Positions 37,168-39,238 of a stretch of DNA of 64,000 bases are shown here, piece by piece. The position numbers and the translations under genes are program-made. The notes below the pieces were generated by a model. That model was not told the DNA's origin. It did no database searches and saw nothing but the letters and a program-made list of their open reading frames with translations. Source of the stretch: Octopus vulgaris (taxonomy: Eukaryota); NCBI GenBank assembly GCA_951406725.2, contig OX597824.1, positions 73,346,001 to 73,410,000 of the forward strand. Reading direction: 5' to 3'. Numbering within the stretch: the stretch's first letter is position 1; the number at the start of each line of letters is the position of its first letter.

Positions 37168-37566
37168 AGACATGCGTGGCTGTGTGGTAAGAAGCTTGCT
37201 TCCCAACCACATGGTTCCAGGTTCAGTCCCACTGTGCAACACCTTGGGCAAGTGTCTTCTACTATAGCCTCAGACTGACCAAAGCCTTGTGAGTGGATTT
37301 GGGAGACAGAAATTAGAAGAAGTCCGTCGTGTGTGTGTTTGTATGTGTGTCTGTGTGTGTGTCTGTGCTTGTTCCCTGCCAACGATTGACAACCAACGGT
37401 GGTGTCTTTATGTCCCTGTAACTTAGTGGTTCGGCAAACAAGGTCGTTAGAATAAGTACTGGGCTTACAAAGAATAAATCTTGAGATCGATTTCTTCGAC
37501 TAAAGCCCTTTAAGGAGGCTCCAACATGGCTGCAGTCAAATAACCGAAACAAGAAAGAGAATAAAA
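37168..37566 (+). mobile_element. SINE S1
   Basis: Full-length homolog. Confidence 0.8.
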
Positions 37567-37840
37567 GAAACAAAATCCAAATCTGTTGATGAAAAATTTG
37601 TTCTAGTTGCTTGAACAATGTTTTAGCAATGGCAGAAGACTGAATTATCACCAGCAACTTTTTTTTTAATTCTTTTAAGTGTAATGGTTATATGACAGTT
37701 TCCCAGTTCTTCACACAGTTCTTTACCTTTTCATTGAACTCTGTAAGATCTTTTGAGCTGTACAAGTTAGGTAGTAGAGGGTAGAAATTGCATTGCTTCA
37801 TAGTATGGTCTGCATCTTCGCATTCACAGGTGGATGGACC

Positions 37841-38297
37841 TGTAGTGATGCTATCGTGGAAGTTTCAGCACGTATGCACAGAGTTGGATTACTTCCGGTG
37901 GGCATCGGAAGTTCCCTCATGCATATGTGCAGGAACTGCAACCTGAAAGCGTACCCGCTAAATCGGCCCTTTTGGAAGAGCAGCCCTAACGAGTGGTCGT
38001 GGCTAAAACTTCTCTCAGAGAAAACCCTATGCATAGAGAAGCTCTCTTTGAAGCGAGAATGGAGACCGTATCTTCTTGGCTCACCCGAGTGAACATTTGT
38101 TTACAGTCCTGTGGACTTGGCTGCCGGTTCGCCCTTAAGAAATATATATGTATATATTTTACCTGTGAACCCGAAGAATAAAGTGTTATTTATTGTTATT
38201 GAAGACAGCCGGATTTTGGTACCTTTTCTTCGACTTGTATGTGACAAGATAAAACCAGACACCCCTCAAGTGTTCCTGAAACTCTCATCTTGTTACA
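37841..38297 (+). mobile_element. LTR (probably Gypsy-type), 457 bp, no internal region
   Basis: TGTA...TACA termini, AATAAA at 38177, followed after 2 nt by a tRNA-Trp PBS. GACC at 37837-37840 and 38339-38342. Confidence 0.85.
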
Positions 38298-38299
38298 AT

Positions 38300-38338
38300 T
38301 GGTGACCCCAACGTGATTCGAACATGCAGCCTACTGAT
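38300..38338 (-). other. PBS extended into a 39-nt copy of the tRNA-Trp 3' half, including CCA
   Basis: TGGTGACCCCAACGTGATTCGAACATGCAGCCTACTGAT is complementary to tRNA-Trp positions 76-38 (recalled metazoan sequence), with about 3-4 mismatches, two of them at CpG. Confidence 0.85.
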
Positions 38339-38664
38339 GACCATTCTTGTAATCACATCAAATCAAATCACCTTTTTGTCATCCCTTTCTTGTTCTAGTG
38401 CAGTCAAGGGTCTTTCACTGAACCCATCAGACTGCATCATATCTTCAAGGAAGAGATCAAGCTAGACTTATGATGTGGCAGTAGATCCTTGAGCTGATGA
38501 ACTAGTGCATGCTGACAAAGAACATCTCAAGGATCTAGAAGAAAAACATGATTGTTGCTCCCCTGAAGATGAACTGTGAGTTTTACTTTGTCCAACTTCT
38601 CTTTCAGAGTGCTTACACTCTGTCATGTATGCACACTGACATTACACATCCAGCATATGCAATG

Positions 38665-39044: not shown

Positions 39045-39238
39045 CAAGGGGTTGCTGTAAAGTTCCTGGATTTAAGGGTGGCCCAACCTTCTGAGTTCTT
39101 TTACATGGCTTAGAAAAACTGAAGGACCACTGCAATAAATGTGAATATGAGAGAAGAATATGTTGGGTAAAATCATAATTAACTGATCCTCCTGTATTTT
39201 CTTTTACCCAAAGCCAGGAACTTTTCAGCACCCCCTCA
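39045..39238. mobile_element. mariner MITE, same family as 20310-20526
   Basis: Same TIRs and internal sequence. Confidence 0.85.

What the first reader, a model, noticed from the sequence alone, without database searches (positions are those of the whole stretch)
37837..38342. LTR integrated with half of its tRNA-Trp primer copied, ending exactly at position 38
Seen: a 457-bp TG..CA LTR, 2 nt, then 39 nt complementary to tRNA-Trp from the CCA end to position 38, then GACC, which also precedes the LTR (4-bp TSD). No internal retroelement sequence follows. Known: a PBS is at most about 18 nt because plus-strand synthesis stops at m1A58; read-through stops at the modified base 37; vertebrate tRNA-Trp has m1G37; CCA is added after transcription. 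Inference: this is not a recombination-derived solo LTR but an integrated plus-strand strong-stop DNA whose RT read through position 58. It would be a fossil record of tRNA modification sites, and possibly a recurring class of LTR-tRNA-half mini-elements.
Basis: partly seen in the sequence, partly recalled or inferred. Interest (0 to 1): 0.75.

Follow-up and report, generated by a model that had tools for sequence, protein, structure and literature searches.

The report
Retrotransposon scars recording tRNA modifications
A jumping gene's terminal repeat is fused here to a DNA copy of half of the host tRNA that primes it, and dozens of similar scars in this genome end or carry errors at the same three tRNA positions, so they likely preserve where that tRNA was chemically modified when the copies were made.

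Summary
Confirmed, and recurrent. The window holds a 457-bp Gypsy LTR, AT, and 39 nt complementary to host tRNA-Trp from the CCA end (not gene-encoded) to A38, between GACC repeats. Empty paralogs of the target repeat carry one 4-mer. In the wider LTR group 35 of 70 copies carry a shared leader with only a 12-nt PBS, so the long match is not a normal leader. The genome holds at least 56 LTR-plus-long-tRNA-copy sites (45 events). Copies end preferentially at nt 39, before G37 (10 of 24, P=5e-6), and at nt 50, before G26 (3 of 6). They carry errors opposite A58 (14 of 45 versus 21 of 765, P=3e-10). These are the known RT-blocking modified positions. Best model: plus-strand strong-stop DNA read through m1A58; its unpaired tail was then joined to the target, an LTR end, internal sequence or an inverted LTR. 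A tail on a full-length 3' LTR followed by solo-LTR recombination is not excluded. The modifications are inferred, not measured. The genome looks like an octopus, not a vertebrate. These are one-off products, not a mobile mini-element family. No prior genomic description was found in 10 paper searches or in this scan's notes.

The parts
37837..37840 (.). Left copy of the 4-bp target-site duplication GACC
   Evidence: Sequence; single 4-mer in paralogous empty copies of the host repeat
37841..38297 (+). Ty3/Gypsy-type LTR, 457 bp, TG..CA, with AATAAA at 38177
   Evidence: 40 scored genome matches at 86-91% identity besides itself at 100%, 704 first-look candidates; a relative lies after RT-RNaseH-integrase (L139); 22 of 24 plain copies have a 4-bp TSD with at most 1 mismatch
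38298..38299 (+). 2-nt spacer AT between U5 and the primer site, as in native 5' LTRs of this group
38300..38338 (-). DNA copy of mature tRNA-Trp(CCA), positions 76 to 38 (the minus strand reads as tRNA). The first 12 nt equal the native PBS length; 38317 is the normal strong-stop end; 38318 lies opposite A58 (correct T here); 38338 lies opposite A38
   Evidence: 36 of 39 match to the host gene plus CCA
38339..38342 (.). Right copy of the target-site duplication GACC, directly after the tRNA copy; no CA att end on this side
37660..37836 (.). Older dispersed repeat that was the integration target (left part); family not identified
   Evidence: 37 genome matches to the left flank; no Pfam hit for the 49-aa open stretch
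38343..38580 (.). Continuation of the same older repeat (right part; end approximate)
   Evidence: Paralogs align on from the left flank into this stretch

Best explanation
This is a Gypsy LTR joined to a 39-nt DNA copy of its tRNA-Trp primer, likely an integrated replication error in which plus-strand synthesis read through the predicted m1A58 stop and halted at the predicted m1G37. Steps: (1) SHOWN: the copy comes from mature tRNA (CCA present, normal AT spacer). (2) SHOWN statistically, modification identity INFERRED: across the genome such copies end before G37 and G26 and carry errors opposite A58. (3) INFERRED: the over-long strong-stop DNA pairs with the minus-strand PBS over only 12 nt. 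The minus strand can still copy it and make a normal double-stranded U3 end, but the plus strand is left with an unpaired tRNA tail that cannot be extended normally. (4) PARTLY SHOWN: the tail is resolved by mis-priming, often on short microhomology, onto the U5 end, an inverted LTR end or internal sequence. Where this restores a second att end, the TSD is a clean 4 bp, consistent with integrase inserting both ends. (5) INFERRED for this locus: integrase inserted the U3 end and the tail was joined to the target by repair (or taken as a non-canonical second end), which lost the unpaired interior. The product has no PPT or genes and cannot copy itself.
For: Native leader: 35 of 70 U5-anchored loci held (72 exact hits) have a 12-nt PBS plus an A-rich leader, most with gag/RT behind. 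Recurrence: 56 sites with 27 nt or more, in several LTR families; 13 of 86 distinct contexts in an extension-blind sample have 28 nt or more. Signatures (45 events): nt 19 (A58) altered in 14 of 45 versus 21 of 765 at other non-CpG positions, P=3e-10, and versus 3 of 265 at other T positions. Ends at nt 39: 10 of 24 versus 27 of 407, P=5e-6. Ends at nt 50: 3 of 6, P=0.006. Nt 51 (G26) is deleted in 2 of 3 copies that pass it. Tails join the gag leader (L137) or integrase coding sequence (L189, L188, L199) downstream of the LTR, which fits a transferred strong-stop DNA at the left end. When the right end is an LTR terminus the 4-bp TSD is exact in 11 loci (L002, L003, L034, L038, L334, L356, L348, L172, L339, L039, L032) and has 1 mismatch in 2 (L246, L182). 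Direct tail-to-flank joins give variable duplications of 4,2,3,3,1,3,2,0,2 bp, above random (P=0.0013). The tRNA copy at nt 34-41 resembles the U5 end. Literature passages: HIV-1 strong-stop products include minor stops at position 37 and, on unmodified tRNA, full read-through (PMC13191261); Ty1/Ty3 make dead-end tRNA-tailed strong-stop DNA (PMC5371799, PMC2939329); one-ended integration with host joining of the bad end is known (PMC5041404).
Against: The modifications were not measured in this organism. 1 of 16 tRNA-Trp genes has T at position 58, which could explain some of the 8 A mismatches, though not the 5 C mismatches or the indels. The 7 cases of A opposite G37 are ambiguous, because in 3 (L180, L192, L284) the A can come from the duplicated target. 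The PPT test cannot exclude a 3'-LTR origin (expected 0.9, seen 0 of 23). The focal locus has a perfect 4-bp TSD without a CA end; only 1 of the 9 direct joins scored shows this, and one-ended integrations in PMC5041404 usually give much larger duplications. Two lineages carry an inherited 30-32-nt match in their leader (an 11-member group; 6 loci), so long matches can be inherited; the first group was collapsed to one event and the second is not in the 45. End positions are uncertain by 1-2 nt through chance matches. The 50-nt stop was noticed after the fact and rests on 6 copies.
Confidence: 0.65

Rival explanations
1. Same read-through chemistry, different route. The tRNA was not removed from the minus strand, so the final plus strand of a full-length cDNA ran into the tRNA at the right end. 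The whole element integrated with the tail on its 3' LTR, and LTR-LTR recombination later left LTR plus tail.
For: Solo-LTR formation dominates this group (22 of 24 plain copies have TSDs; only 10 of 260 LTR starts follow a PPT), so tailed full-length precursors would be rare. It keeps the fossil-record reading intact.
Against: 0 of 23 non-native copies with a located start has a PPT in front. No long-match site examined has sense-strand integrase directly before its LTR. Three full-length members end normally with a TSD. Tails fused to gag leader or integrase sequence and fold-backs need the tail at the left LTR or on a free strong-stop DNA.
Confidence: 0.24
2. This copy first had the tail followed by the last 7-10 nt of U5 (as in L002, L003, L034, L038), was integrated at both ends by integrase, and later lost those few bases.
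For: It explains the perfect 4-bp TSD. The closest relative with a tail (L002) has exactly that structure.
Against: It needs a precise later deletion with no flanking microhomology. Nine other sites also end at nt 39 without a U5 piece.
Confidence: 0.06
3. The 39-nt match is the family's ordinary leader, and the interior was deleted after integration.
For: Two lineages do carry an inherited 30-32-nt match. The only gag-linked 5' LTR among the 30 closest copies (L012/L137) has a 32-nt match.
Against: 35 of 70 U5-anchored loci share a 12-nt PBS leader. Tail lengths vary from under 18 to 75 nt with unrelated junctions. L137 itself carries an error opposite A58. A deletion would have to remove exactly the interior and 3' LTR up to the TSD.
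Confidence: 0.03
4. A tRNA-half retrocopy made by a LINE, or a tRNA gene, happens to abut a solo LTR.
For: A CCA-bearing tRNA copy alone does not name the enzyme.
Against: One TSD encloses LTR and tRNA copy together. The copy starts exactly at the PBS position behind the AT spacer, and the same geometry recurs in dozens of loci, always with the primer tRNA. tRNA genes lack CCA.
Confidence: 0.02

Closest known systems
HIV-1 plus-strand strong-stop read-through products P1 and P5 (PMC13191261, passages; PMC8599865, passages)
   Same: U3-R-U5 plus a tRNA copy that passes A58 and stops before modified base 37, or runs to the tRNA 5' end.
   Different: In the passages read these are minor products that cannot act as templates; PMC8599865 states that cDNA extended beyond position 54 cannot be integrated. 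Here such products are integrated and inherited in an animal germline, come from Gypsy elements, and show a further stop before G26.
Dead-end tRNA-tailed strong-stop DNA of yeast Ty1 and Ty3 (PMC5371799 and PMC2939329, passages; Lauermann and Boeke 1997 not held)
   Same: The PBS is shorter than the copied tRNA stretch, so the first strong-stop DNA has an unpaired tail. One laboratory insertion (MK44) captured such a 12-nt end.
   Different: The Ty tail is 12 nt. Here tails run to 18, 39, 50 and 75 nt, occur naturally by the dozen, and carry misincorporation marks.
One-ended aberrant integration of ASLV and HIV-1 DNA (PMC5041404, passages)
   Same: One precise LTR end and one host-joined end with a variable junction.
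   Different: There it is induced by mutation or drug and duplications are often hundreds of bp. Here duplications are 0-4 bp and the bad end is a tRNA copy.
Helenus TRIMs (PMC10886601, passages)
   Same: Short Gypsy-dependent LTR derivatives with tRNA-derived sequence and, in animals, 4-bp TSDs.
   Different: Helenus has two LTRs, PBS and PPT, the tRNA-like part lies inside the LTR and is not the primer, and it multiplies as a family. None of this holds here.
Modification mapping by RT stops and misincorporation (mim-tRNAseq, PMC8062790, passages)
   Same: Positions 26, 37 and 58 are among the standard RT-barrier sites, read as stops and mismatches.
   Different: Here the reading was done in vivo by a retrotransposon RT and fixed in the genome.
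Strong-stop DNA plus primer tRNA model for the origin of tRNA-derived SINEs (Ohshima and Okada; recalled only, not read)
   Same: On the opposite strand these loci read tRNA, CCA, antisense U5. L063 carries a whole tRNA-Trp that ARAGORN calls a gene.
   Different: No amplification or transcription of any such chimera was shown here.

Membership tests
Ty3/Gypsy LTR retrotransposon (origin of the LTR) | pol order RT, RNase H, integrase before the 3' LTR | tested here: met
   L139, whose LTR is 89% identical to the window's
Ty3/Gypsy LTR retrotransposon (origin of the LTR) | TG..CA LTRs, PPT before the 3' LTR, fixed short TSD | tested here: met
   L359-L361 show paired LTRs, PPT and 4-bp TSD; 22 of 24 plain copies have 4-bp TSDs
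Ordinary recombination-derived solo LTR | TSD directly abuts both LTR ends; no PBS retained | tested here: not met
   41 nt lie between the LTR's CA and the right TSD
Read-through plus-strand strong-stop DNA | LTR followed by the complement of mature primer tRNA including CCA, longer than the native PBS | tested here: met
   39 nt versus a native 12 nt; genes lack CCA
Read-through plus-strand strong-stop DNA | Ends one base short of RT-blocking tRNA positions; errors at positions read through | tested here: met
   ends at nt 39 and 50, errors at nt 19 and 51
Read-through plus-strand strong-stop DNA | The blocking bases are actually modified (m1A58, m1G37, m2,2G26) in this tRNA | not tested
   Identities are recalled from other eukaryotes; no tRNA reads were examined
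Read-through plus-strand strong-stop DNA | Single-LTR form at the time of integration (no later LTR-LTR recombination) | tested here: inconclusive
   0 of 23 with an upstream PPT, about 0.9 expected
TRIM / Helenus | Two LTRs with PBS and PPT between them | tested here: not met
   One LTR in the window, no PPT
TRIM / Helenus | tRNA-like sequence inside the LTR; copies share one structure | tested here: not met
   The tRNA copy lies outside the LTR and junctions differ between loci
Half-tRNA priming (copia, Ty5 type) | PBS complementary to the anticodon arm, not to the CCA end | tested here: not met
   The match begins at the CCA end

The most novel reading that the evidence does not exclude
LTR-retrotransposon reverse transcriptases have been running a natural tRNA-seq experiment in the germline. 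Read-through strong-stop DNAs, held in the HIV literature to be non-integrating dead ends, integrate often enough to leave a datable, position-resolved fossil record of primer-tRNA modifications (58, 37, 26) in any LTR-rich genome. Now and then they place a whole tRNA with its polymerase III promoter in front of antisense U5, a ready-made precursor for tRNA-headed SINEs or TRIMs.
Probability: 0.55. Interest if true: 0.82.

Novelty: new variant of a known kind. Interest (0 to 1): 0.72.

Why it matters
It gives in-vivo, genome-encoded evidence for a question so far studied mostly in vitro: how tightly tRNA modifications stop plus-strand synthesis, and what happens to the products that escape. 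It runs against the statement, made for HIV-1, that such products cannot integrate. It makes ancient or unstudied tRNA modification sites testable from assemblies alone, by a simple census of LTR-PBS junctions. It also explains a class of odd 'solo LTR plus long PBS' and spurious tRNA-gene calls, and shows a route by which long tRNA matches enter leaders and are inherited.

Tried and rejected
Rfam and ARAGORN do not see the half tRNA, so the match was made against the genome's own tRNA-Trp genes. L038 and L039, 5.5 kb apart, looked like one element with a tailed 3' LTR; they are separate insertions with their own TSDs. I first read the sequence after L058/L172 and L246 as internal leader; it is the inverted start of the LTR. 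I first took 18-nt matches as the normal PBS of this LTR group; the normal PBS is 12 nt. 'A opposite G37' was downgraded to suggestive. CpG decay does not explain nt 19: it is not a CpG base, and CpG neighbours 9, 12, 15, 22, 25 and 28 show 0-3 changes in 45. An orthologous empty allele was sought in 4 of 24 listed runs: none shows a joint that skips the insertion, all four bridge the left junction, and the right junction was uncovered, which proves nothing either way. One young family with a 20-nt leader match (most of the 36 rows at 20 nt) showed no long tail, so tails may be family-dependent or enriched with age. The host repeat was not identified. PMC7197481 (passages) held nothing on tRNA tails. 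No supplements were opened; those of PMC10886601 and of Repbase-type papers might list such junctions.

Full report
OBSERVATION. The window lies at G000:C11:73346001-73410000 in a 2.8-Gb assembly. At 37841-38297 is a 457-bp TG..CA LTR, followed by AT, 39 nt, and GACC; GACC also precedes the LTR. ARAGORN found 16 tRNA-Trp(CCA) genes in the stretches fetched, none with a full encoded CCA end. The 39 nt match the complement of the common gene plus CCA at 36 positions (two CpG transitions, one T>A) and stop opposite A38. No gag/pol and no second LTR lie in the window. The insertion interrupts an older repeat with 37 matches. Of 19 paralogs aligned at the left flank, most continue directly into the right-flank sequence with one 4-mer, and L158 has GACC itself. 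So the duplication is exactly 4 bp and the G after nt 39 is target. Contigs from 4 runs, labelled as 4 organisms, bridge flank and LTR on the left with 0-6 differences in 399 nt; none shows an empty allele, and the right junction was not covered.

THE FAMILY. The 40 best LTR matches other than itself are 86-91% identical. Most are plain solo LTRs: 22 of 24 with both ends located have a 4-bp TSD with at most one mismatch. One copy (L139) follows broken RT, RNase H and integrase genes in Gypsy order. An exact 20-mer spanning the U5 end and PBS start has 72 hits, of which 70 were held. Of these, 35 have a 12-nt PBS and an A-rich leader, mostly with gag/RT behind; 6 belong to a lineage with a fixed degenerate 30-32-nt match; 29 are other. 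So the normal leader is not a 39-nt match, and even 18-nt matches in this group are likely tRNA copies. Caveat: these gag-bearing members are from the wider group; among the 30 closest copies only L012/L137 is a gag-linked 5' LTR, and it has a 32-nt match.

RECURRENCE. A CCA-bearing 29-nt pattern (up to 2 mismatches) has 64 hits and 0 control hits; about a dozen are tRNA genes. A 17-nt pattern blind to extension has 190 hits. I examined the first 94 in coordinate order, which collapsed to 86 distinct contexts: 73 match for 17-20 nt and 13 for 28 nt or more. Pooling all loci then held, minus tRNA-gene loci L127-L133, gave 56 sites of 27 nt or more in several LTR families. I collapsed an 11-member shared-leader group to one and dropped L248 (poor gapped match), leaving 45 events. 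Loci found later (such as L348 and the 65-nt side of L141) are not in that count.

THE MODIFICATION SIGNATURE. Opposite A58 (nt 19), 14 of 45 events are altered (8 A, 5 C, 1 insertion) against 21 of 765 at other non-CpG positions 4-29 (Fisher P=3e-10). Of 6 reaching nt 50, 3 end there (P=0.006, noticed afterwards), and 2 of the 3 that pass lack the base opposite G26. Positions 26, 37 and 58 are standard RT-barrier sites (PMC8062790, passages). Their identity here as m1A58, m1G37 and m2,2G26 is recalled from other eukaryotes, not measured. Against: 1 of 16 genes has T58, and the A seen opposite G37 in 7 of 24 can be target-derived in 3.

WHAT FOLLOWS THE TAIL. (a) The last bases of U5, then an exact TSD (L002, L003, L034, L038, L334, L356; L348 with a foreign U5-like end); tRNA nt 34-41 resemble the U5 end. 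(b) An inverted LTR part; TSD exact in L039, L172, L339 and with one mismatch in L246, L182. (c) Internal sequence: gag leader (L137), integrase (L189, L188, L199), or integrase plus second LTR with exact TSD (L032). (d) Flank directly, as in the window: duplications of 4,2,3,3,1,3,2,0,2 bp in the 9 loci scored, more than random (mean sum 8.1, observed 20, P=0.0013) but exact 4 bp only here. The contrast fits two-ended integrase action in (a)-(c) and one-ended insertion plus repair in (d).

MECHANISM. Established: PPT-primed plus-strand DNA copies U3-R-U5 and the tRNA to m1A58; minor HIV-1 products stop at 37 or, with unmodified tRNA, run to the 5' end (PMC13191261, passages). Ty1 and Ty3 accumulate tRNA-tailed dead-end strong-stop DNA (PMC5371799 and PMC2939329, passages). 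Host enzymes can join a bad end after integrase inserts the good one (PMC5041404, passages). Inferred: with a 12-nt PBS, an over-long strong-stop DNA still lets the minus strand build a normal U3 end but leaves a plus-strand flap, which mis-primes or is end-joined, giving classes (a)-(d). The main rival places the tail on the 3' LTR of a full-length insert, later reduced by recombination. No tailed 3' LTR was seen (0 of 23 with a PPT in front; none with sense integrase directly upstream), but only 10 of 260 LTR starts follow a PPT, so about 0.9 were expected and the test is not decisive. That counting pattern fits 21 of the 30 closest copies but only 10 of the 70 U5-anchored loci, so the ratio is rough. 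Both routes keep the fossil-record reading.

COMPARISON AND NOVELTY. It works like the HIV-1 read-through products and the Ty dead ends, but is integrated; PMC8599865 (passages) says such HIV-1 cDNA cannot integrate. It is not an ordinary solo LTR, not a Helenus TRIM (PMC10886601, passages) and not half-tRNA priming. PMC7472051 (passages and section 4.3) considered RT errors at tRNA modifications within mouse ERV PBSs and rejected them there; it does not cover sequence beyond the PBS. Ten full-text searches of the open library (listings only, apart from the papers named) found no genomic census of such junctions. Subscription and older literature is largely missing: Lauermann and Boeke 1997 was not held, and the Ohshima-Okada SINE model and a cloned MLV circle with tRNA sequence (Colicelli and Goff) are recalled only. 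This scan's notes hold no match; the nearest, e1-9869716, is a tRNA-Trp copy inside an LTR in another genome.

VERDICT. A real, recurrent class of integrated reverse-transcription errors that carries a statistically strong imprint of tRNA positions 58, 37 and 26. New variant of a known kind; interest 0.72.

Noticed in passing
L063/L208 (G000:C29:5320140): LTR followed by the complement of a whole tRNA-Trp with CCA, lacking the base opposite G26 and mismatched opposite A58. ARAGORN calls it a tRNA gene. No TSD found.
   Followed up: partly
L060/L141 (G000:C25:9812022-9812152): Two LTR ends head to head with tRNA copies of 31 and 65 nt joined at an inverted repeat between the D- and T-arm regions.
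   Followed up: partly
L039, L172, L339, L246, L182, L143: Fold-back insertions in which the tRNA copy is joined to an inverted LTR part. Where both outer ends are U3 termini the 4-bp TSD is exact (L039, L172, L339) or has one mismatch (L246, L182).
   Followed up: yes
L032 (G000:C2, about 127977700-127978900): A 1.2-kb two-LTR deletion derivative: LTR, 13-nt tRNA match, integrase fragment, second LTR, exact TSD. TRIM-like in shape.
   Followed up: partly
L344, L345, L351, L295: A gag-bearing lineage, partly in tandem arrays, whose leader carries a degenerate 30-32-nt tRNA-Trp match: probably a read-through tail that became fixed and was amplified.
   Followed up: partly
L171, L179, L193, L195, L206, L251, L279, L121, L122, L175: Another group with a shared 31-32-nt match followed by repeated U5/PBS-like units. 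Members differ at the base opposite A58, as if it were recopied from tRNA in separate cycles.
   Followed up: partly
L348: A 32-nt tail is followed by a U5-like end that resembles another LTR family, then an exact TSD; possible cross-family template switch.
   Followed up: no
L341, L350: Two copies share an unexplained tRNA-like sequence after a 9-nt PBS match that does not fit the tRNA-Trp genes seen.
   Followed up: no
L355: LTR joined to its target through a 4-nt overlap between the PBS and the duplicated target.
   Followed up: partly
L130-L133 (G000:C6:58.38-58.46 Mb): Cluster of at least 14 tRNA-Trp(CCA) genes with a few variants (T47; one T58).
   Followed up: partly
L211-L283, most rows at 20 nt; L144: A young, abundant tRNA-Trp-primed family with a fixed 20-nt leader match; L144 has LTRs 99.3% identical around a 1.5-kb interior.
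   Followed up: no
window 37660-37840 and 38339-38580: Unidentified older dispersed repeat (37 matches) that served as target.
   Followed up: partly
window 39047-39236: 27-nt inverted repeat arms, 89% complementary, 136 nt apart; possible MITE.
   Followed up: no
window 37170-37470 and from 39480: SINE-like repeats; the first resembles an octopus tRNA-derived SINE (recalled, not tested).
   Followed up: no
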